Shown here: in pieces, positions 1,731 to 26,502 of the stretch
How positions within the stretch are numbered: the stretch's first letter is position 1
How the letters are laid out: each line of letters starts with the position of its first letter
Source: Flavobacteriales bacterium CG_4_9_14_3_um_filter_32_8
Lineage (GTDB): Bacteria; Bacteroidota; Bacteroidia; Flavobacteriales_E; Vicingaceae
Assembly (NCBI GenBank): GCA_002790175.1
Contig: PFUQ01000174.1
Location: 1-40,961 of the forward strand
DNA: 40,961 bases
Reading direction: 5' to 3'
Notes under the pieces: model-generated
Told to the model about the DNA's origin: nothing
The model's input: the letters and a program-made list of their open reading frames with translations, nothing else
The model's database searches: none
Made by a program: the position numbers and the translations under genes

Positions 1731-4700
1731 TTAATCTCCACCACCATCAGAAGTCCCAAACTCTTTAATCACCACTTTTTTTCTGTTTTCAATAATGTAG
1801 AAAGAAACATAAACTCCATCTTGAGTGTTTTTTAAAGTAATGGGAATATTGTTTCTAGTTAATTTATATTTACTACCTAAAATACTTTCATCCATTGTAA
1901 TAATGTAATCGCCATTAGGCATGTAAAATTCAAACTTACCTTTTATATTTGTTAAGGTATTATAGGTTTTTCCGTTGGTAGCGGTTATTTTAATTCTCGA
2001 TAAATCGAAAGATTTAGAGGTGTCTGCAATGGCTATTTTTTGTCGGTCTAAAACCACATCACCATAAACTTTAACTCCACGTACAAACGGAATAAATTGT
2101 TGATTATTGGTAATTACCTGAATGGTATCTTTTACATCAGGAAACCAACCCTGTAAATTATCTAAACTCCTTACATAAAATGGGTACGAGTTCATCATTA
2201 TATTTTTAATTTTAGCCTCCCCTTTATTATTGGTAATGACTTCTTTTGCTCCTAATCTTATAATTACATTCTCAATGGCAGGTTCATCCTTGTCACGTTT
2301 TCCATTTCCATTAATGTCATAAAAAGAAATAAAATCTAAGGATGCAGAAGTTTTTTTAATGAAAGGAATTGGTATTCCAAATTCTTTTCGAACCGTAGCT
2401 CCTATGGTAAAGTTTTGAGTAAGATTTCTTCCGTGGTCATTACTATTGATATTAACTAGTGTGTCGTTCGTGTAAAATGAACCATATTTACTGGTATTGA
2501 ATGAGTAATTTCCTCTTAAACTAAATTTCCAACCAGAATTGGTAAAGTAAAATATTTCAGGAAAAATTCCTATACTATGGTTGGTATAAATATTATCATA
2601 GTTGTAAATTAAATTTGATTCTAATATTAAATGCTTATTTTTAAATTGATGTTGATTTTGTAATGATAAACGCACATTTTGTGGGGTTATATCCTTATAT
2701 ACTTGGGTTTGAAAGGCATTGGTAGAAAAAGATCCGTAATTATATCTTGCAGAAAAATCCCAAACATGATATCGAAGTAAAGAAGAGAATTCAAAGTTAA
2801 AGTAATTTTTTTCAACTTCTAAATCTATAGGGTCGCTATATCCCGCTTTAATAAATGTGAAAACCAAGAAGTTTTGTAAAAAATCATACGTAGAGTATCT
2901 AAAACTACCCCCACGATTATGAATTCTTCTTGAAAGATAATCTCTATAATCATAAAAAACACCCGGTTGGTAGGATCCTTTATCTTTTTTTGTTGAGAAA
3001 GTTAAATTATTAAACAATAATTCTTGTTTAAACCCAGGTAATGTTGTAAATGTATTGTAGGTTTGTATATTTTGATAATTGTTCGACAAATAGGTATCCC
3101 AATTTTTATTTAGTTTATAGCTTGTATAGTGTGTTAAACTAAAGCGTTGAAATGAACCCATGCTAAAATTTTTATTGTTAAAACGAGATCCTAAATTAAA
3201 TTTTAATTTTTTTTCTAAAAACTGACTAGAGTAATTACCACCCACTAAGAAACCATAAATTTGATTAGAAGGAGTAGATGTATTATAATCGCTTCGTGTT
3301 GTTGTAGCACCAACGAAGCTAAAAAAATGTTTAAGTTGAATATTAAAATTAGGAAGTAGAGAAAATGAATTGATGGATTTATTACTGTAATAGGATATTT
3401 GCCGACCAAATTTACCAGTAATATTAAAATATTCGTTGTGCAGATAGGTATGAAAAATCCCGAAAGATTCGTTGCGTACTTGTCCAAATAGCCCTGGTGC
3501 TTTAACATAAAATGCCCCAGTTTTGTGTTTTTCTAAATAACTGTAAGATGCTTTTACCCCTTTTCCATAGCTAGTTATTCCAATTACATTTCCACTTACA
3601 TTACCAACTTCTACTGTTTTTTTATCATCAAAATAACCAATATACCAAGGTGCATTGGTTAAAAAATTATTAGTGTAATAATTTCGATTGTAATTCAATT
3701 GTGTAAAATAGGAAATACTTGCTTTTTCATTAATTTGTTTGAAGCCACGCATATCAATTGACATAAATGAGTTTACATCTAATAAATTTTGTACTGAAGC
3801 TTCAACGGTTAGAGGTAAATAGGGATAGCCATATTCTACCGCTTTAGCTTGATTAGGAAGTTTAATAAAATCAACTTTATTCCCCTTTTTAAACGCCCCT
3901 GCTTCTATTCCTTTCGGTTCGCTACTATTAATGTATAAGCTATATTTTTTGTAATATAAATTGGTATTTGGAAGGTATGAATTAATAGATATTTTTTTAA
4001 AATTTCGTTCTTTTTGAGTTAAAATTGACGTTCTATATTTTAATGTAGAATCTTGATGGCTTTCTAAACTCAAAGTAAAATTCGGGTTTTTAATGATAAA
4101 GTCATTCGTGTCCATTAACATTAAATCGCCTCTAAGCATCTTATAACTTACAAAAATATCTTGTTTGTAATTTCCTGTATTTTCAATTCGATATTCAAAA
4201 TCTTTATTGTTTTCTCCGTTTTTAAAATAGAATGTATTCGTTGGTTCAACACTTACGTTCCACGAGATTTTTTTTTTGGTATAAATCGAAAAATTATCAT
4301 TCGCAATTTGTTGATTATCAATATCGATAATAAATGCATTAATGATTACTTCAGTATTTCCGTTAATTAATTTTGTTGGGATAAGTATTACAGGAACAAA
4401 CAATGTATCTTTTGGTTTTATTTCGTATGAAATGGTTACATCATTCATCGATATCCAACTTCCAGGATAAATCAAATCAATTGTAAACTTTATATTTTCT
4501 GAGGTATTGTTGTAAATTTTTAAAACATTTGAAATAATTTCGCCTTGTTTTAATTCAATATTGTTTTTATTGAAACCCGTATGCAATTGGTCGGTTTCGT
4601 TTCCTTTTAAAGAGTTGCTAATACTGTCTTTTAGCTCTTTAACTAGTATTGGAGTGTTTTTGGTTGAATCGGGATTAAGCAAATCAATTATAGGTGAGCC

Positions 4701-7616: not shown

Positions 7617-7622
7617 AATTTG

Positions 7623-8021
7623 TGGAGTCGGAGGGATTCGAACCCTCGTCCAAACAAGGAACTAATAAGCTTTCTTCATGTGTAGCTTTTATTTAATTGT
7701 TAGACTTAAAGCAGGTTAAAAGCCACCAACCTTAAGCTTAAGCTTCTTTAGTTTCGCCAATAAACCGAAGCAATTTATTGACTAGTTTGAAATGATGATA
7801 CCTCTAATACACCCGTTAACAAACAGAACAGTTGTGAGGTAAATGGTTCTACCCCTCTAAGGAGTAGAATTAAGCAAATCCGACTAAGTCGAGATTAGGC
7901 AGCCATTGCATAGTTATTTTCGCCAATTAGCGATTTGAGAGCCGATATTTACGAGCCAACTCACAATGCTCGACATGCTTACCTATCCATTCATCTTGCT
8001 GTCAAAACCAAAAACGACCCC
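7623..8021 (-). ncRNA. ssrA: tmRNA (transfer-messenger RNA)
   Basis: On the minus strand the 5' end is GGGGTCGTTTTTGGTTTTGAC. The 3' end is ...GAGGGTTCGAATCCCTCCGACTCCA (T-arm plus acceptor pairing with the 5' end, CCA not encoded). The internal tag ORF GGC GAA AAT AAC TAT GCA ATG GCT GCC TAA (7924-7895) encodes GENNYAMAA, the Bacteroidota-type tag. Confidence 0.93.
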
Positions 8022-11333: not shown

Positions 11334-12311
11334 ATGAGGCAAATACAATATAGAGAGGCTTTAAACGAAGCCATGTGTGAAGAAATGCGTAAAGATGATT
11401 CCATTGTTTTAATGGGTGAAGAAGTTGCTGAATACGATGGTGCATACAAAGTAAGCAAAGGTATGCTGGCTGAATTTGGTCCAAAAAGAATAATTGATAC
11501 ACCCATTGCTGAAAATGGATTTACAGGTATTGCTGTGGGAGCAGCTATGAATGGTTTACGACCAATTGTTGAATACATGACCTGGAATTTTTCATTAGTA
11601 GCCATCGATCAAATTATAAATAATGCAGCGAAAATGCGTAATATGTCGGGCGGACAATTAAACATTCCTATTGTTTTTAGGGGAGGAACTGGTTCTGCGG
11701 GGCAATTAGGTGCTACACATTCACAAGATTTTTCCAACTGGTATGCCAATTGTCCAGGATTAAAAGTGATTCAACCTTCTAACCCAAAAGATGCTAAAGG
11801 TTTGTTAAAAGCATCAATTAGAGATAATGATCCTGTTATTTTTATGGAATCAGAGCAAATGTATGGCGATAAAGGAGAGGTTCCAGAAGGTGAATACATT
11901 ATTCCTATTGGTGTTGCAGACGTTGTAAGAGAAGGGAAAGATGTTACCATTGCTAGTTTCGGAAAAATGATGAAATTAGTAAATACTGCAGCACACGAAT
12001 TGGCAAAAGAAGGGATTAATGCAGAAGTAATAGATTTAAGAACATTGCGCCCTATTGATTATAATACTATAATAAAATCTGTTAAGAAAACGAACAGAAT
12101 GGTTTTTGTAGAAGAATCTTGGCCTTTGGGTTGCTTTGCATCAGAAGTAACTTATAAAGTGCAAAACGAAGCTTTTGATTATTTAGATGCTCCAATTATT
12201 AGAATTACTGGGGCAGATGTTCCTATGAGCTTCTCTCCACCATTAATAGAAGCATACTTGCCCAATGTTGATAAAATCATTAAAGCAGTAAAACAGGTAA
12301 TGTATAAATAA
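11334..12311 (+). CDS. pdhB: pyruvate dehydrogenase E1 component beta subunit
   Basis: 325 aa. YREALNEAMCEEMRKDDSIVLMGEEVAEYDGAYKVSKGMLAEFGPKRIIDTPIAENGFTGIAVGAAMNGLRP is a typical E1-beta (transketolase pyrimidine-binding plus C-terminal domain) sequence. Confidence 0.93.
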   Translation: MRQIQYREALNEAMCEEMRKDDSIVLMGEEVAEYDGAYKVSKGMLAEFGPKRIIDTPIAENGFTGIAVGAAMNGLRPIVEYMTWNFSLVAIDQIINNAAKMRNMSGGQLNIPIVFRGGTGSAGQLGATHSQDFSNWYANCPGLKVIQPSNPKDAKGLLKASIRDNDPVIFMESEQMYGDKGEVPEGEYIIPIGVADVVREGKDVTIASFGKMMKLVNTAAHELAKEGINAEVIDLRTLRPIDYNTIIKSVKKTNRMVFVEESWPLGCFASEVTYKVQNEAFDYLDAPIIRITGADVPMSFSPPLIEAYLPNVDKIIKAVKQVMYK

Positions 12312-12315
12312 GAAA

Positions 12316-12366
12316 GGGACAGGAGACAAGGGAAGGGGAAAGGGGGATAGGGGACAAGGGATAGGG
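12316..12366 (+). repeat. G-tract array (GGG/GGGG/GGGGG separated by 2-4 nt), G-quadruplex-capable, within a ~170-bp purine-rich tract
   Basis: Read directly: GGGacaGGagacaaGGGaaGGGGaaaGGGGGataGGGGacaaGGGataGGG, starting 5 nt after the pdhB stop. GGGGttaGGGG follows at 12410-12420. Confidence 0.85.
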
Positions 12367-15737: not shown

Positions 15738-16634
15738 ATGAAGAAAAAAGTATTATTTGTAGCTTCTTTATTTGTAGCTACCGCAATTTTTGCACAAGAC
15801 GGTTTAACGTCAAAAAAAGGTGAAGCATACTTACCAGAAGCTGGTGATTGGTCTATCGGCTTTAATGCTAGTGCTCTAACCTATTATGCTGGTAATTTAT
15901 TTAATGGTAACGTATCAAACACAGCTTTAACTTCTGGTAGCTGGATGAATGGTTCAGTTGACCAAGAAATTAGATTTAAAATGTTCAAAGATGAAAAAAC
16001 TGCTTATAGATTAAGAGCTAGAATTGGTATGAGCTCTAGTGGTGGTGACCTTTTAGGTAAATATGACCAAGACGCTAATGATTCTACAGAAATCCAAGAT
16101 TACGTTGTTAATACAAAAAATTCAAATGGATTTACTGTAATTTTAGGAGCTGGTATTGAAAAAAGAAGAGGTAACACTAGAATTCAAGGATATTATGGTG
16201 GTGAAATTTTCTTCGGTTTATTAGGTGGTACTGACACTAAAACTGATGATGGAAGAATTCTTTCTGATGACTGGTTTCAACCTGTAGGTGCAGATCCTTA
16301 TGATTATGCTGGTACTTTTTCAGGTAATGTAAGAACTACAGAAGTTAAAACTGGAAGTGGATTTACCCTTGGATTACAAGGATTTATTGGTGTAGAATGG
16401 TTTTTTGCTCCAAAAGTATCTTTAGGTGCTGAGTACACTTGGGGTCTAGGAATGTCTTCTGTTGGAGAAGGTGAAACTACTACTGAGTACTGGGGTCTAA
16501 CTGACGTTGAAATTGCTACATTTTCTACAGCACCAAATCACGTAGTAACAGAAACAAATAAAACTGGTAAAACAGGTACTTTTTCTTTTGATACTGGACA
16601 CAATGCTATGTTAAATCTTAACTTCCACTTCTAA
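15738..16634 (+). CDS. outer-membrane beta-barrel (porin-like) protein
   Basis: 298 aa with signal peptide MKKKVLFVASLFVATAIFAQ, Gly/aromatic alternating strands and the terminal ...LNLNFHF (C-terminal Phe OMP signature). A strong terminator lies downstream. Confidence 0.8.
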   Translation: MKKKVLFVASLFVATAIFAQDGLTSKKGEAYLPEAGDWSIGFNASALTYYAGNLFNGNVSNTALTSGSWMNGSVDQEIRFKMFKDEKTAYRLRARIGMSSSGGDLLGKYDQDANDSTEIQDYVVNTKNSNGFTVILGAGIEKRRGNTRIQGYYGGEIFFGLLGGTDTKTDDGRILSDDWFQPVGADPYDYAGTFSGNVRTTEVKTGSGFTLGLQGFIGVEWFFAPKVSLGAEYTWGLGMSSVGEGETTTEYWGLTDVEIATFSTAPNHVVTETNKTGKTGTFSFDTGHNAMLNLNFHF

Positions 16635-16660
16635 GAAGTAGAATTAAAATAATAATTCAA

Positions 16661-16692
16661 AAGCCCCGACATTAACTGTCGGGGCTTTTTTT
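16661..16692 (+). terminator. Rho-independent terminator
   Basis: aagccccgac-attaact-gtcggggctt followed by a T-run, 27 nt after the stop codon. Confidence 0.85.
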
Positions 16693-16702
16693 GTAAAACC
16701 TA

Positions 16703-16739
16703 AACCTAACAGGTTTCTAAAACCTGTTAGGTTTTCTTT
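16703..16739. terminator. second perfect 13-bp hairpin (aacctaacaggtt-tctaa-aacctgttaggtt), possibly a bidirectional terminator
   Basis: Read directly. Followed by ttctttg on the + strand. Confidence 0.45.
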
Positions 16740-16912
16740 GATAGCATTTTTTGTCAACAAAAAAAGTGTAGTGTAAAATACAGAAAATAATTTTAAAGTT
16801 GTCAGATATTGGGATGGTAAAGTTGTTAAAAACAACGATAATATGGCTCACTCGGCACAGCCGAGCGAGGTTTACCCCAGTATATAGAGTTATTTCCACA
16901 TCATCCACTACC

Positions 16913-17046
16913 ATCATTGTGAGTGGAACGCAGTGTGGTGAAGCACCACGAATTAATACATTAATTTACAATAAAAACTGTCCTTCGATTAGACAGATTA
17001 CTTCATCTCCTACGCTCAATTCCAACGCTTGGGCTTCGCAATGACG
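16913..17046. repeat. intergenic palindromic repeat element of the (G/A)TCATTG(C/T)GAG...CTTCGCAATGAC family
   Basis: Left end atcattgtgagtggaacgcagtgtggtgaagca. Internal hairpin ctgtc-cttcgatta-gacag. Right end agattacttcatc...cttcgcaatgacg. The arms resemble the ribD insert at 25035-25121. Extra hairpins at 16851-16865 (ctcggc-aca-gccgag) and 17063-17086 (gtcat...atgac). Confidence 0.6.
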
Positions 17047-17129
17047 TATTTTAAATTCCTTTGTCATCAAAATCAAGGAATGACGATGTTCTTTAAAGGT
17101 GTCGGGGGAAGTGATGAATTATAAATCTT

Positions 17130-17753
17130 TCATTTTCCTTCAAATAATCCATAAACTTGGGCATCAATAGATTGAATAATCTTGCCTAAATCTTCAGCAT
17201 TTTCCGAAAAATTATTGGTATCAACATCTACGATTAATATTTTTCCTTGGTCATAAGTTGATATCCAAGCTTCATATCGTTCATTCAAACACTTTAAATA
17301 ATCTATTCGAATACTTTCTTCATAATCTCTACCTCTTTTTTGTATTTGATTTACTAAAGTAGGAACGGAAGCTCTCAAATAAATTAAGATATCTGGAGGT
17401 TGAATAAAAGTTTCTTGCAATTTAAACAAAGAAAAATAAGTTTCGAAATCGCGAGTAGTCATTAACCCCATCGAATGTAGGTTGGGTGCAAAAATGTAAG
17501 CATCCTCATATAAAGTTCTATCTTGGATTACATTTTTTTTATTTTTTCTAATCTCCTGGATTTTACTAATTCTACTGGTCATGTAGTAAATTTGGAGATT
17601 AAATGACCAGCGTTGCATATCATTATAAAAATCATTTAAAAAAGGATTTTCATCCACATCTTCAAAATGGGCATCCCATTTGTAATGTTTTGCTAATAAT
17701 GTTGTTAAAGTTGTCTTTCCAGACCCTATATTTCCAGCTACTGCGATTAACAT
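17130..17753 (-). CDS. deoxynucleoside kinase
   Basis: 207 aa. P-loop IAVAGNIGSGKTTL, then FEDVDENPFLNDFYNDMQRWSFNLQIYYMTSR and the DRTLYED motif typical of the dNK/dCK/dGK family. Confidence 0.9.
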   Translation of the reverse strand: MLIAVAGNIGSGKTTLTTLLAKHYKWDAHFEDVDENPFLNDFYNDMQRWSFNLQIYYMTSRISKIQEIRKNKKNVIQDRTLYEDAYIFAPNLHSMGLMTTRDFETYFSLFKLQETFIQPPDILIYLRASVPTLVNQIQKRGRDYEESIRIDYLKCLNERYEAWISTYDQGKILIVDVDTNNFSENAEDLGKIIQSIDAQVYGLFEGK

Positions 17754-23331: not shown

Positions 23332-24420
23332 TCATTTAAAATACCTAAAATCATGTTCATTTTTAATTGTTAAGAGCGATTCGTAGATTAAACTGATGAC
23401 GTTATCCACATCTTCTTTGTGAACCATTTCTACAGTAGTGTGCATGTATCTTAACGGTAAAGATATTAATGCCGAAGCCACTCCACCAGTGGCATAAGCA
23501 AAAGCATCGGTATCTGTTCCTGTAGCTCTTGAAGCTGCAGCTCGTTGGAAGGATATTTTGTTTTTTTCGGCAGCTTTAATTATTAATTTTAGAAGATTAT
23601 TATGCACCGCTGGTCCATAAGTTAATACCGGTCCTTTTCCTGCATAATTATCTCCTTGCTCAATTTTACTAATCATTGGAGTTTGCGTGTCGTGGCAAAC
23701 ATCAGTAACAATGGCTACATTTGGCTTAATATTTTGAACCATCATTTCAGCACCTCTTAATCCAACTTCTTCTTGAACAGAATTAATAATGTATAATCCA
23801 AAAGGTAATTTCACTTTGTTTTCTTTTAACAAACGAGCTACTTCAGCAATCATAAATCCTCCAATTCTATTATCTAAAGCTCTTCCAACATAATACCTGT
23901 TATTTAAAATCATAAATTCATCTTCATAAGTTACCACGCAACCCACATGAACGCCTAATTTTTCTACTTCAACTTTAGTGATGCATCCACAATCTAAAAA
24001 GATATTTTCCAATTTTGGAGTTTCTTCTTTACCTGCAGTGCGAGTATGGATAGCAGGCCATCCGAAAACTGCTTTTACAATGCCTTTATCGGTATGAATG
24101 TTTACTCTTTTTGAAGGAGCAATTTGATGATCTGAACCACCATTTCTTCTTAAATAGATGAAACCTGTGTCTGAAATGTAATGTACAAACCACGAAATTT
24201 CATCTGCATGAGCTTCAATAACTACTTTATATTTTGCCTTGGGATTTATAATGGCTGCAACAGAACCGTAAGTGTCTATAATATGTTCATCAACATAAGG
24301 TTTAATGTAAGCTAACCACATTTTTTGACCTTCCGACTCAAATCCAGTTGGTGCAGCATTATTAATGTAGTTTTCTAAAAATTGTAGTGATTTAGCAGTA
24401 ATTTTTGATTTTTTTGCCAT
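23332..24420 (-). CDS. M42 family metallopeptidase (glutamyl aminopeptidase / FrvX-like)
   Basis: 362 aa. VVIEAHADEI, GRALDNRIGG, VQEEVGLRGA and the LPLRYMHT motifs are typical of peptidase family M42. Confidence 0.9.
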   Translation of the reverse strand: MAKKSKITAKSLQFLENYINNAAPTGFESEGQKMWLAYIKPYVDEHIIDTYGSVAAIINPKAKYKVVIEAHADEISWFVHYISDTGFIYLRRNGGSDHQIAPSKRVNIHTDKGIVKAVFGWPAIHTRTAGKEETPKLENIFLDCGCITKVEVEKLGVHVGCVVTYEDEFMILNNRYYVGRALDNRIGGFMIAEVARLLKENKVKLPFGLYIINSVQEEVGLRGAEMMVQNIKPNVAIVTDVCHDTQTPMISKIEQGDNYAGKGPVLTYGPAVHNNLLKLIIKAAEKNKISFQRAAASRATGTDTDAFAYATGGVASALISLPLRYMHTTVEMVHKEDVDNVISLIYESLLTIKNEHDFRYFK

Positions 24421-24503
24421 GTCTTTATATTTATTTATAAACCAATAAAAAACGAAATTAAGAATTTGAAATTTTCTAATCGAAAAAGTAACTTATATAT
24501 TTT

Positions 24504-25643
24504 ATGAAAAGATTACTTTTGAATCAGATGAATATTGATGAAAAATACATTCATATTTGCTTAGAATTAGCAAAAAAAGGAATTGGAAATGTTGCTCCTA
24601 ATCCAATAGTTGGTTGTGTAATTGTTTACGAAAATAAAATTATTGGAGAAGGTTATCATCAAAAATATGGTGAAAACCACGCTGAAGTGAATGCAATTAA
24701 TTCTGTAAAAAATAAAGATTTATTGAAAGAAAGTACTCTTTATGTGAATTTAGAACCTTGTACTCATTTCGGAAAAACCCCTCCCTGTTCTAATTTGATT
24801 ATTGAAAAAAAAATTCCAAAAGTTGTTGTAGGTTGTATAGATTCTTATGCCGAAGTTGCTGGAAAAGGAATACTAAAAATGAGAGATGCAGGAATTGAAG
24901 TGGTGGTGGGTGTGTTAGAAAAAGAATCGCTCGATTTGAATAAACGATTTTTTACGTTTCATCATAAAAAAAGACCATACCTAATTTTAAAATGGGCTGA
25001 AACCAAAGATGGATTTATTGATGTGGACAGAACCGTCATTGCGAACCATAAGGAACGAAATGGGAAGCAATCTTTTAAATCAACAGATTGCTTATCTTCG
25101 TTGTACTCCGTTCGTAATGAAGTTGATAATTGGATTACATCATCATTAAGTAAAAAATTAGTTCATCAATGGAGAAGTGAAGAACAAGCAATACTAGTTG
25201 GAACGAATACAGCTTTAAACGATAATCCACAATTAAATGTAAGAGAAATTGTTGGAAAGAACCCTTTAAGAATTGTTTTAGATTTGAATTTAAGGTTGCC
25301 TAAAAACTTGAATTTGTTTGACCATTCTGTACCAACTTTAGTAATCAACTTACTGAAACAGGAAAAAAACAACAATTTAGAATTGGTGAAAATTGAAAAT
25401 GAAAAAGATATCATTTCCCAACTCCTTGAAGTTTTGTATCAAAAAGAAATTCAATCAGTAATTATCGAAGGTGGTGCTCAATTGCTCAACGCTTTTATTA
25501 CTAAAAATTTATGGGATGAAGCTAGAGTGTTTATTGGTGATAAGTATTTTAAGAATGGTTTAAAAGCTCCAAACATCAACCGAAAACCCATGAAAACTGA
25601 GCAAGTTGAAACAGATGTACTAAACACTTATTTTAATGATTGA
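24504..25643 (+). CDS. ribD: bifunctional riboflavin biosynthesis protein RibD (pyrimidine deaminase / uracil reductase) carrying a 29-aa insertion
   Basis: Deaminase motifs HAEVNAI and LEPCTHFGKTPPC. Reductase region KWAETKDGFI...WITS...QWRSEEQAILVGTNTALNDNPQLNVR...VIIEGGAQL. The likely true start is the ATG at 24528 (MNIDEKY). Confidence 0.92.
   Translation: MKRLLLNQMNIDEKYIHICLELAKKGIGNVAPNPIVGCVIVYENKIIGEGYHQKYGENHAEVNAINSVKNKDLLKESTLYVNLEPCTHFGKTPPCSNLIIEKKIPKVVVGCIDSYAEVAGKGILKMRDAGIEVVVGVLEKESLDLNKRFFTFHHKKRPYLILKWAETKDGFIDVDRTVIANHKERNGKQSFKSTDCLSSLYSVRNEVDNWITSSLSKKLVHQWRSEEQAILVGTNTALNDNPQLNVREIVGKNPLRIVLDLNLRLPKNLNLFDHSVPTLVINLLKQEKNNNLELVKIENEKDIISQLLEVLYQKEIQSVIIEGGAQLLNAFITKNLWDEARVFIGDKYFKNGLKAPNINRKPMKTEQVETDVLNTYFND
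25035..25121 (+). repeat. 87-bp imperfect palindromic element inserted in frame within ribD (encodes VIANHKERNGKQSFKSTDCLSSLYSVRNE)
   Basis: Terminal arms gtcattgcgaac / gttcgtaatgaa are complementary at 10 of 12 positions. The central perfect 9-bp stem is aagcaatct / agattgctt (25065-25073 / 25085-25093) with an 11-nt loop. The arm sequence resembles the intergenic element at 16913-17046. Confidence 0.75.
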
Positions 25644-26502
25644 TATTCTTTTAACCATTGTTGCCTTTAATACCCTAATTGTCGTTTTTAAACTATTTGA
25701 CAAATTTGGTGTTGACAATTTACAAGCATTAATTATCAATTACTTTGTAGCTGGATTTTGTGGTTTATATTTTTCTGATCAAGAATTTTCTATTACTTAT
25801 ATTTTAAATGCCCCTTGGATTTATCACGCAGCATTAGTTGGAGTTTTGTTTATTATAACTTTTAATTTATATGCAATTGGAACACAAAAAGTAGGAATTG
25901 CAGTAACTACTGTTGCTAATAAGTTGTCGCTTTTAATTCCTGTTGGTTTTGCTTTGATTTTATACCCCAACGAACAACTTTCCTATCTAAAAATAATAGG
26001 TTTTATAATGGCTATTGTTGGCATTTACCTTTCCTCCACCAAAAAGAGAAAACTATCTTTTGATAAAAAATACTTAGTACTAATTATTTTAGTTTTTATT
26101 GGTCAAGGTTTTGCCGACACGATTTTTAATCATGCACAAAAAACAGTAGTAAATGATGATGAAAAAGGATTGTTTTTTATGTGTTTAATGTTTATCGCAG
26201 GAATTAGTGGTATTTTAATATTAATCGGAAAATCAATAAAGCAAAAACCAAAATTTGAAATTAAAAACAGTATTGGTGGAATTGTTCTAGGGTTACCCAA
26301 CTTTGCTTCATTAATTTTCTTTTTTAATGCATTAGAAAGTTCTGGTCTTTCTGCTTCCCAAGTTTTTCCAGTGGTAAGCATGGGCATTGTTACAGTTTCT
26401 GCATTGGTAGGATTAGTTCTTTTTAAAGAAAAATTAACTCTCTTAAATTGGATTGGGTTGGGCTTTGCAGTATTGGCTATATTTTTTATCACTTTTCTTT
26501 GA
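25636..26502 (+). CDS. DMT/EamA-like integral membrane transporter
   Basis: 288 aa, about ten hydrophobic segments and a two-halves organisation. The start overlaps the ribD stop by 8 nt (ATGATTGA). Confidence 0.65.
   Translation: MIDILLTIVAFNTLIVVFKLFDKFGVDNLQALIINYFVAGFCGLYFSDQEFSITYILNAPWIYHAALVGVLFIITFNLYAIGTQKVGIAVTTVANKLSLLIPVGFALILYPNEQLSYLKIIGFIMAIVGIYLSSTKKRKLSFDKKYLVLIILVFIGQGFADTIFNHAQKTVVNDDEKGLFFMCLMFIAGISGILILIGKSIKQKPKFEIKNSIGGIVLGLPNFASLIFFFNALESSGLSASQVFPVVSMGIVTVSALVGLVLFKEKLTLLNWIGLGFAVLAIFFITFL

What the first reader, a model, noticed from the sequence alone, without database searches (positions are those of the whole stretch)
25035..25121. Palindromic repeat element inserted in frame inside ribD and apparently translated
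SEEN: between the conserved RibD reductase motifs ...KWAETKDGFI and NWITS... there are 36 residues. The E. coli and B. subtilis enzymes, as I recall them, have ~8-10. The extra 29 codons (25035-25121, exactly 87 nt, starting on a codon boundary) form a long imperfect DNA palindrome. The outer arms gtcattgcgaac / gttcgtaatgaa are complementary at 10 of 12 positions. The middle arms are ggaacgaa / ttcgtt(gta)cc. The central perfect 9-bp stem is aagcaatct / agattgctt around an 11-nt loop. The arms resemble the intergenic element at 16913-17046 (tcattg[c/t]ga, ggaacg[a/c]a, gaagca; agatt[g/a]ctt...ttcg[t/c]aatga). The reading frame stays open (VIANHKERNGKQSFKSTDCLSSLYSVRNE). ESTABLISHED: Rickettsia palindromic elements (RPEs) are the classic case of ~100-150-bp palindromic repeats inserted in frame in protein-coding genes and retained as extra surface peptide segments. 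INFERENCE: a selfish palindromic repeat of this Bacteroidota genome has colonised an essential biosynthetic gene at a permissive surface loop. That would be an RPE-like phenomenon outside the Rickettsiales.
Basis: partly seen in the sequence, partly recalled or inferred. Interest (0 to 1): 0.75.

Follow-up and report, generated by a model that had tools for sequence, protein, structure and literature searches.

The report
Palindromic repeat translated inside ribD
A selfish, hairpin-forming DNA repeat of about 89 bases sits in frame inside the riboflavin gene ribD of a flavobacterium-like bacterium. It adds a floppy loop to the enzyme, a kind of event already known from other bacteria, but relatives show this one spot being filled, swapped and emptied again and again.

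Summary
ribD (24504-25643, +) carries an imperfect palindrome. With its end tags it spans 25034-25122 (89 nt). It folds far better than shuffles (z = -4.3) and keeps the frame open.

Solved RibD structures have 6 residues where this protein has 35. The closest relatives (85% identical) have a 7-residue loop.

The insert is an inverted pair of REP-like units of the form CGTC-ATTGC...GCAAT-CT. It is homologous to a decayed intergenic copy at 16914-17046 and to intergenic copies in related genomes. A truncated metagenome scan found at least 154 such units, some in frame inside uvrC, hsdR, dnaX and other genes. AlphaFold gives a normal RibD fold, with the insert as a low-confidence excursion between strand 159-167 and helix 214-226.

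New here: 84 of 118 close RibD homologues have a lengthened loop at exactly this site. The inserts have several architectures, nested units and deletion remnants. Their distribution barely tracks the RibD tree, so turnover is recurrent.

In-frame CGTC/GTAG-tagged REPs and Rickettsia RPEs are already published, so this is a new member of a known kind. Translation, genome-wide copy number and the mobilising enzyme are untested.

The parts
24504..25643 (+). ribD ORF (379 aa), the bifunctional deaminase/reductase that hosts the insert
   Evidence: ORF list. Pfam dCMP_cyt_deam_1 at 9-111 and RibD_C at 204-345. Best PDB matches are RibD/RibG. Zn-binding HAE and PC..C motifs and all columns invariant in 41 relatives are intact.
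25034..25122 (+). Whole palindromic element (89 nt): an inverted pair of REP-like units with their tags pointing outwards. It is read through as residues about 177-206.
   Evidence: Sequence. Fold z = -4.29. nhmmer profile hit 25034-25120, E = 8e-23. Absent from L082-L084. GC 39% against 31% for ribD.
25034..25073 (+). Left (long) unit: tag CGTC (25034-25037), outer stem ATTGC/GCAAT, inner hairpin CCAT-AAGGAACGAA-ATGG, tail CT
   Evidence: Aligns with the long units of L085-L088 ribD copies and of the intergenic copies L087 3680-3779 and L088 8757-8828. The inner stem changes on both sides between copies: ACATT/AATGT, ATATT/AATAT, ACAC/GTGT.
25074..25084 (+). Spacer, the loop of the long hairpin (TTTAAATCAAC)
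   Evidence: Identical in L085 although the host genes are only 70% identical.
25085..25122 (-). Right unit, inverted. On the minus strand it reads CTTC-ATTAC-GAACGGAGTACAACGAAGATAA-GCAAT-CT. The tag and the outer stem each carry one mutation.
   Evidence: minus-strand reading in L081 and L085, CGTCATTACGA.... L081 has the intact tag GACG.
25065..25093 (+). Central perfect 9-bp stem (25065-25073 / 25085-25093) formed by the two facing GCAATCT tails
   Evidence: (I2). The only helix that RNAalifold keeps across 9 copies; it is conserved in sequence and shows no covariation.
16914..17046 (-). Decayed intergenic copy of the same family, between the convergent porin-like gene (15738-16634, +) and the deoxynucleoside kinase gene (17130-17753, -)
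   Evidence: Exact CGTCATTGCGA at 17036-17046 (-). nhmmer E = 4.6e-4. An orthologous, better preserved copy sits at the same intergenic site in L083; L089 and L091 have none. Fold z = -2.2.

Best explanation
The 89-nt segment 25034-25122 is a non-autonomous palindromic repeat: two inverted REP-like units, each built as a CGTC tag, an ATTGC...GCAAT stem and a CT tail, with the tags pointing outwards. It belongs to a family dispersed through Bacteroidota-like genomes.

**Shown.**
- It lies in the DNA that encodes the loop between the first strand and the following helix of the RibD reductase domain.
- The reading frame stays open.
- The rest of the enzyme is predicted to fold normally.
- Relatives with and without the insert both exist.
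- The family has intergenic copies, and in-frame copies in other genes.

**Inferred.**
- The insert is transcribed and translated as a disordered extension of about 25-29 residues. It is tolerated rather than useful, and only in-frame, stop-free variants survive because ribD is needed.
- Spread is by a DNA-level process that acts on the hairpin: either a single-strand HUH/Y1 (RAYT-like) enzyme that leaves no target duplication, or REP-to-REP recombination.
- Once a first copy had landed, the site became a landing pad. Units have since been swapped, nested and deleted repeatedly in the clade, which explains the many architectures and remnants.
For: - **Palindrome and frame:**
- **Extra relative to solved RibDs and nearest relatives:**
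- **Family membership:** an alignment and a profile join the ribD copies to intergenic copies in L083, L087 and L088 and to window 16914-17046.
- **In-frame copies in real genes:** UvrC, HsdR, PGA_cap, a methyltransferase and DnaX.
- **Fold preserved:** residues 173-208 have pLDDT below 50 and flank confident secondary structure. TM is about 0.8 to RibG/RibD.
- **Turnover:**
  - 84 of 118 homologues have loops of 10 aa or more; 44 have 22 aa or more.
  - Fitch parsimony needs 25 changes, against 29.8 for shuffled labels.
  - Bootstrap-supported sister pairs differ in loop state.
  - Deletion remnants include RECNKI, RNCKERSNDI and RCFVPRNDKQI.
  - Insert similarity is discordant with gene similarity. 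Window versus L085: gene third positions 48%, insert 90%. L091 versus L089: genes 89% aa identical, yet different architectures.
- **No target-site duplication** at four junction pairs.
- **Published precedent:** CGTC-tagged REPs occur in genes (PMC3733652).
Against: - No expression or peptide data, so translation is inferred.
- The complete genome is not available. Copy number (2 in 41 kb) and the absence of a second ribD are unknown.
- The element length (89 nt) is not a multiple of three and the native loop is partly missing, so the original event cannot be reconstructed.
- No mobilising enzyme was found. A crude HUH/Y1 motif scan of all held loci gave one ORF, in L135, not adjacent to units.
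- The window units do not have the 8-9 bp stem and 4-5 nt loop of canonical CGTC REPs.
- A single ancient insertion followed only by decay, deletion and gene conversion cannot be excluded as the source of the diversity.
Confidence: 0.8

Rival explanations
1. One ancient insertion in the ancestor of this flavobacterial clade, inherited vertically. All present diversity comes from point decay and internal deletions, with no later insertion or exchange with other genomic copies.
For: Deletion derivatives clearly exist: RECNKI, RNCKERSNDI, RCFVPRNDKQI. L088 and L089 share the 5' junction and spacer, so some vertical descent with modification is visible. The 3' junction GACG|TT GAY AAY TGG is shared by many alleles.
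Against: - Genes 81-89% identical carry three different left units and three different right units (L088, L089, L091). Point mutation cannot interconvert these.
- The same composite (a nested TGTCATCC...GTCGAAGGA unit plus an ATTGCGGG hairpin) occurs in two separate, well-supported clades, each of which also holds non-composite alleles.
- Tags and stems stay near-perfect across lineages whose synonymous sites are saturated (third-position identity about 50%).
- The 5' junctions fall in two frames, AGA-NNC-GTC and CGT-CAT.
Confidence: 0.25
2. The extension is a selected protein feature: an exapted loop that modulates RibD, for example as a lid over the reductase site or as a partner-binding segment. 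The nucleotide palindromy is only a historical trace.
For: The site lies just before the conserved NWIT helix, next to the substrate pocket. From memory, this position corresponds to the Met20 loop of DHFR. Long or remnant loops are kept in 84 of 118 relatives. Insert aa identity between window and L085 (about 69%, counted by eye from the loop sequences) equals that of the rest of the protein (70%).
Against: - Sequence, length (10-39 aa) and even reading frame of the insert differ between close relatives.
- The nearest relatives have none.
- AlphaFold gives no confident structure for it.
- The same units occur in unrelated proteins and in intergenic DNA.
Confidence: 0.1
3. The hairpin is a functional cis-element within the ribD message or DNA, such as an RNase site, a translational pause, or a gyrase or recombination site. 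It is kept for that reason.
For: Nucleotide identity of the insert between window and L085 (90%, including the unpaired loop) far exceeds third-position identity of the gene (48%). Both-sided changes keep the inner stem of the long unit. The fold is strong.
Against: - No Rfam family matches, even at E <= 10.
- No terminator- or promoter-like signal.
- It is absent from the closest relatives, which share the same operon layout.
- Intergenic copies between convergent genes show the same conservation.
- The central stem shows conservation, not covariation.
Confidence: 0.1
4. Artefact or dead gene: an assembly chimera at a repeat, or a ribD pseudogene.
For: Repeats can mis-join contigs. The whole genome is not available to rule out a second ribD.
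Against: An independent JGI assembly (L081) has the same structure at 99.96% identity. Dozens of relatives carry inserts at the same codon. The ORF is intact with all invariant residues, and the overlapping downstream gene arrangement is conserved.
Confidence: 0.03

Closest known systems
CGTC-tagged REPs (Di Nocera, De Gregorio & Rocco 2013, BMC Genomics 14:522; PMC3733652)
   Same: Unpaired CGTC tag at one end (TGTC variants also occur). The stem begins A-T, T-A. A short tail follows. Units are paired in inverted orientation and can fold singly or as one long hairpin. Most copies lie between convergent or co-directional genes, with some in frame inside genes, including DNA repair and replication genes (uvrC and dnaX were seen here too). 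No transposase is associated. One relative's unit (L089, CGTC-ATTGCGGGC-TTGA-CCCGCAAT-CT) fits their consensus exactly.
   Different: The window's units have only a 5-bp outer stem, conserved internal loops (GAR / CGAA or GGAA) and a variable inner hairpin. Canonical units have an 8-9 bp stem and a 4-5 nt loop. The tail is CT rather than CCA. The host is a low-GC Bacteroidota lineage, whereas theirs were mainly Alphaproteobacteria. They did not report a single gene site with clade-wide turnover.
Rickettsia palindromic elements (RPE; Ogata et al. 2000, cited from memory and via PMC3733652)
   Same: Palindromic repeats inserted in frame in essential genes and kept as extra peptide segments in loops. 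According to PMC3733652, RPE-4 and RPE-6 also end in CGTC.
   Different: No sequence comparison with RPE consensus sequences was run. The host phylum and lifestyle differ (free-living, not an obligate intracellular bacterium). RPE-1 elements are longer (about 100-150 bp).
REPINs and RAYT / TnpA_REP systems (Bertels & Rainey 2011, from memory; Quentin et al. 2018, PMC6006769)
   Same: The unit of spread appears to be a doublet of inverted REPs forming a hairpin, with no target-site duplication. PMC6006769 reports a Bacteroidetes-dominated TnpA_REP subclass (2.6) with atypical, non-GTAG structures.
   Different: The tag is CGTC, not GT[AG]G. No RAYT was found next to any copy held here.
Bacterial MITEs (Correia/NEMIS, Nezha, RUP and others)
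   Same: Small, non-coding, terminal inverted repeats, dispersed, occasionally inside genes.
   Different: No target-site duplication at the junctions examined, no related autonomous IS identified, and a REP-like tagged hairpin architecture.

Membership tests
CGTC-tagged REP superfamily (PMC3733652) | Unpaired CGTC (or TGTC/CCTC) tetranucleotide at one end of each unit | tested here: met
   Left unit: CGTC at 25034-25037. Right unit: GAAG at 25119-25122 in the window but GACG in the 99.96%-identical L081. The intergenic copy has GACG at 17043-17046.
CGTC-tagged REP superfamily (PMC3733652) | Stem begins with complementary A-T and T-A pairs | tested here: met
   ATTGC...GCAAT in all units.
CGTC-tagged REP superfamily (PMC3733652) | Stem of 8-9 bp and loop of 4-5 nt (their Table 1) | tested here: not met
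   Window units have a 5-bp outer stem around a 24-26 nt interior with its own small hairpin. The feature is met only in a relative's unit, L089 ATTGCGGG-TCAA-GCCCGCAAT.
CGTC-tagged REP superfamily (PMC3733652) | Short unpaired tail after the stem (consensus CCA) | tested here: inconclusive
   A conserved CT follows GCAAT. In dimers these tails pair with each other.
CGTC-tagged REP superfamily (PMC3733652) | Dispersed multi-copy family, mostly intergenic, often as inverted dimers | tested here: inconclusive
   Two copies in 41 kb. Intergenic dimers between convergent genes in L087 and L088. 154 units in a truncated metagenome scan, 18 in long ORFs. No complete genome of the source was available for a census.
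Rickettsia palindromic elements (RPE) | Sequence similarity to an RPE family consensus | not tested
   No RPE sequences were on hand. Only the shared CGTC tag is known, from PMC3733652.
Rickettsia palindromic elements (RPE) | In-frame insertion in a gene that stays intact | tested here: met
   ORF of 379 aa, conserved motifs intact, fold predicted normal. Expression of the peptide cannot be tested here.
REPIN / RAYT system | Two inverted REPs forming one hairpin as the repeated unit | tested here: met
REPIN / RAYT system | GT[AG]G tag and a cognate RAYT gene flanked by the same REPs | tested here: not met
   The tag is CGTC. An HUH...Y..NP motif scan of the window and 213 loci found one ORF, in L135, not flanked by units. 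That scan is crude and the source genome is incomplete.
MITE | Target-site duplication flanking terminal inverted repeats | tested here: not met
   Flanks are GAAC|...|TTGA (window ribD), AGCT|...|TTAA (L088 intergenic), TAAA|...|AACA (L087 intergenic) and GCTT|...|TTAA (L001). None forms a direct repeat.

The most novel reading that the evidence does not exclude
The codons for the loop between the first strand and the following helix of the RibD reductase domain are a true integration and replacement hot-spot in a whole flavobacterial clade. CGTC/TGTC-tagged REP units are repeatedly inserted, nested into one another at a fixed position, exchanged with the genomic pool or between lineages, and deleted. 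In one class (RHCEE...), the element's own CGT tag even supplies the codon of the Arg that is invariant in all 41 aligned relatives. If so, ribD alleles would be a natural time series of REP mobility in Bacteroidota. They would point to a site-specific, still unidentified mobilising activity for the "orphan" CGTC REPs.
Probability: 0.45. Interest if true: 0.6.

Novelty: new member of a known kind. Interest (0 to 1): 0.42.

Why it matters
In-frame palindromic repeats show how selfish DNA can lengthen proteins without killing them. Most documented cases come from Rickettsia and from GC-rich Proteobacteria. This case adds a clean example in a free-living, low-GC Bacteroidota lineage.

More usefully, it offers one orthologous site that exists in dozens of states: native, two reading frames, several unit types, nested units and deletion scars. 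Such a series could be used to work out how the transposase-less CGTC REPs move or recombine. It could also measure how much length and sequence an active-site-adjacent enzyme loop can absorb.

For annotation, it warns that peptide strings such as RHCEERSN, VIAN..KQS, DCFVPRND, IAGQARND and FDKLRVT inside Bacteroidota proteins are repeat-derived, not family signatures.

Tried and rejected
- **Rfam.** At gathering threshold on the whole window, and at E <= 10 on 24800-25400, the only real hit was a tmRNA elsewhere.
- **Terminator and promoter scan of 24300-25800.** No terminator-like site; promoter-like sites at or below the number in shuffles.
- **Window-wide repeat finder.** It did not link the two copies because they are too diverged and gapped. 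The 9-mer TCATTGCGA with one mismatch is not enriched in the window, 7 hits against 7.7 expected. The link needed the longer exact tag and a profile.
- **RNAalifold on nine copies.** It kept only the invariant central stem, with no covariation. The both-sided changes in the inner stem were read by eye from the alignment, because a register shift prevents a clean column-wise count.
- **Genome-contig scan with RibD.** It returned mostly relatives below 60% identity without inserts.
- **HUH/Y1 motif scan for a RAYT.** One ORF, in L135, not adjacent to units.
- **Sliding identity, window versus L085.** It could not separate element-only similarity from recombination of a longer ribD tract, because the upstream flank is protein-constrained.
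- **Considered and dismissed.** Intein: no nucleophile or HN motif, and too short. Translational bypass: no stop codon or take-off/landing codons. Group I/II intron: far too small.
Full report
**1. The observation**

The window encodes a 379-aa bifunctional RibD at 24504-25643 on the plus strand. It has a deaminase domain at residues 9-111 and a RibD_C reductase domain at 204-345.

The DNA under them is an imperfect palindrome:
- The outer arms are complementary at 10 of 12 positions.
- A perfect 9-bp central stem (25065-25073 / 25085-25093) surrounds an 11-nt loop.
- Region 25030-25126 folds at -29.9 kcal/mol. 200 dinucleotide shuffles average -16.8 (z = -4.29), and none folds as well.

With its end tags the element is 25034-25122, 89 nt. 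The insert has 39% GC, against 31% for the gene.

An independent JGI contig (L081) is 99.96% identical over 7.5 kb and has the same insert. One of its three differences restores the right-hand tag: GACG in L081, GAAG in the window. The feature is therefore not an assembly artefact.

**2. The segment is extra**

phmmer against solved structures splits the match in two. Query residues 173-207 face 6 residues in T. maritima 2hxv and B. subtilis 2b3z.

The closest relatives found (L082-L084) are 85% identical in protein, 71% identical at third codon positions, and share the gene order. Their loop is 21 nt, AGAACAAAGCAAACCACACTA (RTKQTTL/P), with no palindrome.

The AlphaFold model (41-sequence alignment, mean pLDDT 79) is confident except at residues 1-4, 173-208 and 238-249. 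The insert lies between strand 159-167 and helix 214-226. The model superposes on RibG/RibD crystal structures with TM about 0.8. The enzyme core is therefore predicted intact, and the insert is an unstructured excursion.

From memory, this loop corresponds to the Met20 loop of DHFR, next to the reductase substrate site. I did not verify that here.

**3. What the insert is**

It reads as two inverted units.
- **Left unit (25034-25073):** CGTC-ATTGC-GAAC-[CCAT AAGGAACGAA ATGG]-GAA-GCAAT-CT.
- **Right unit (25085-25122, read on the minus strand):** CTTC-ATTAC-...-GCAAT-CT.
- **Spacer:** 11 nt between them.

The same architecture (long unit, spacer, short unit) occurs between convergent genes in related genomes, at L087 3680-3779 and L088 8757-8828. 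It aligns with the ribD copies over its whole length.

A profile built from these copies finds, in 220 kb of close relatives, every ribD copy and those intergenic copies. It also finds L083 5696-5754 (E = 1e-5) and window 16914-17046 on the minus strand (E = 4.6e-4). The last two are orthologous copies at the same intergenic site. L089 and L091 lack an element there. The intergenic copy is decayed (fold z = -2.2).

Between copies, the inner stem of the long unit changes on both sides: ACATT/AATGT, ATATT/AATAT, ACAC/GTGT, CCAT/ATGG. The central stem is simply conserved.

None of the junctions examined shows a target-site duplication.

**4. How widespread the family is**

I scanned the metagenome collection for CGTCATTGCGA-N(3-30)-GAAGCAATCT. 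Many form plus/minus pairs, tags outwards, 15-30 nt apart. Their interiors are variable and are themselves small hairpins.

Eighteen units lie in reading frames open for at least 50 codons on both sides. In low-GC contigs, five of these are clearly real genes interrupted in frame: UvrC, a type I restriction R subunit, a PGA_cap protein, a methyltransferase and DnaX.

No Rfam family matches, and there is no terminator or promoter signal at the ribD copy.

**5. The ribD site across relatives**

I measured the loop in 118 of the 120 closest RibD homologues (60-85% identity).
- 34 have 6-9 residues. Seven is the mode, and more distant Bacteroidota mostly have 7-8.
- 40 have 10-17 residues.
- 44 have 22-39 residues.

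The long loops fall into several recognisable repeat translations:
- R-x-VIAN..KQS...DCF...RND
- RHCEERSN...RND, which is the same unit in another frame
- ..SCHPE[LP]VEG..IAGQARND, which contains a nested TGTC-tagged unit and a canonical CGTC hairpin
- FDKLRVT / FDSAQDD types

DNA from ten relatives confirms the architectures. It shows two 5' junction frames, AGA-NNC-GTC-ATT and CGT-CAT-TGC. In the second, the element's tag supplies the codon of the Arg that is invariant in all 41 aligned relatives.

Loop state is almost uncorrelated with the RibD tree: Fitch parsimony needs 25 changes, against 29.8 for shuffled labels.

Bootstrap NJ gives well-supported clades that mix states.
- {P0001, P0002, P0004, P0005, P0006} holds both filled and native-length loops (96%).
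- Sister pairs differ, for example P0108/P0114 (100%) and P0075/P0089 (92%).
- Deletion scars are clear: RECNKI next to RECEEHSN...RNDV, plus RNCKERSNDI and RCFVPRNDKQI.

Insert similarity is discordant with gene similarity.
- Window versus L085: genes 70% aa identical, third positions 48%, but inserts 90% identical, including the unpaired spacer.
- Window versus L086: genes 84% identical, inserts 68%.
- L091 versus L089: genes 89% identical, yet different left and right units.
- The same composite is present in two separate clades, L089 and L092 (65% aa), each of which also holds non-composite alleles.

Point decay of one ancient insertion cannot produce this pattern. It needs unit replacement, nested insertion, re-insertion or recombination, together with frequent deletion.

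**6. Mechanism**

*Shown:* a dispersed tagged-hairpin repeat lies in frame in a loop-coding segment. The gene is otherwise intact, and alleles with and without the insert coexist in the clade.

*Inferred:*
- The insert is translated as a disordered loop and is tolerated. Essentiality of ribD filters for in-frame, stop-free variants.
- The family spreads either through a hairpin-recognising single-strand DNA activity, as RAYTs do for GTAG REPs, or by REP-to-REP recombination. The absence of target duplications fits both.
- The first copy made the site a landing pad for later units.

I could not find a mobilising enzyme. A crude HUH/Y1 motif scan gave one unlinked ORF. Di Nocera et al. also report none for CGTC REPs. 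Quentin et al. describe a Bacteroidetes-dominated TnpA_REP subclass with atypical structures, which is a candidate.

**7. Comparison with what is known**

Di Nocera et al. 2013 (PMC3733652) defined CGTC-tagged REPs by these features:
- an unpaired CGTC tag;
- a stem starting AT;
- an 8-9 bp stem and a 4-5 nt loop;
- a 3-nt tail;
- inverted dimers;
- intragenic copies in several species, notably in repair and replication genes;
- no associated transposase.

They showed that Rickettsia RPE-4 and RPE-6 belong to this superfamily.

The window element meets the tag, the AT-start stem and the dimer criteria. It fails the stem and loop dimensions, having a 5-bp outer stem with an inner hairpin. One relative's unit fits exactly. 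It therefore works like a CGTC REP dimer or an RPE and is best filed as a divergent member of that superfamily.

It is not a REPIN in the strict sense, since it has no GTAG tag and no RAYT. It is not a MITE, since it has no target-site duplication.

An "RPE-like phenomenon outside Rickettsiales" is already in the literature.

**8. Verdict**

The novelty is modest: a new member of a known kind. The added value is a single, clade-wide, highly dynamic insertion site in an essential enzyme.

Untested:
- translation of the insert;
- genome-wide copy number;
- whether a second ribD exists;
- the mobilising activity;
- whether turnover is by new insertion, gene conversion or inter-lineage recombination.

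Noticed in passing
window 7620-8021 (-): tmRNA gene (Rfam RF00023, 153 bits, full length), the only Rfam hit in the window.
   Followed up: no
window ~448-482 and 12309-12338: A C-rich heptamer run (CAGTCCC repeated, then a T-run) is 80% complementary to a G-rich stretch 11.8 kb away (GGGACAGGAGACAAGGGAAGGGG). This may be a second dispersed repeat family.
   Followed up: no
L085 ~4300-4700; L092 3015-3308; L093 13-285 (syntenic with window 16635-17129): The window and L083 carry the REP-like element at this intergenic site. Other relatives carry a small GIY-YIG nuclease ORF there instead, so this spacer is also a variable landing site.
   Followed up: partly
window 25636-25643: The ribD stop codon overlaps the start of the downstream EamA-family membrane protein gene by 8 nt. 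The overlap and gene order are conserved in L082-L084, L086-L089 and L091-L093 (L085 has a different downstream gene), which suggests translational coupling.
   Followed up: no
window 25121 vs L081 6818-6819: One of only three differences between the window and the 99.96%-identical JGI contig falls in the element's right-hand tag (GACG to GAAG, D to E). The repeat may therefore be decaying within the population.
   Followed up: partly
L089 10502-10603; L092 10502-10594: A TGTC-tagged unit (TGTCATCCYGAGCYTGTCGAAGGA) is nested at the same nucleotide position of the left unit. The two ribD genes are only 65% identical. This is either REP-into-REP targeting or horizontal movement of the whole composite.
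   Followed up: partly
L106, L136, L167, L168, L173 (metagenome loci): Units of the same family lie in frame inside uvrC, hsdR, a PGA_cap gene, a methyltransferase gene and dnaX. This echoes the published bias of intragenic REPs towards repair and replication genes.
   Followed up: partly
window 16660-16700: A GC-rich hairpin followed by a T-run (AAAAGCCCCGAC..GTCGGGGCTTTTTTT) lies just after the porin-like gene. It is conserved in L083, L085, L089 and L091 and is a likely intrinsic terminator, separate from the REP-like element.
   Followed up: no
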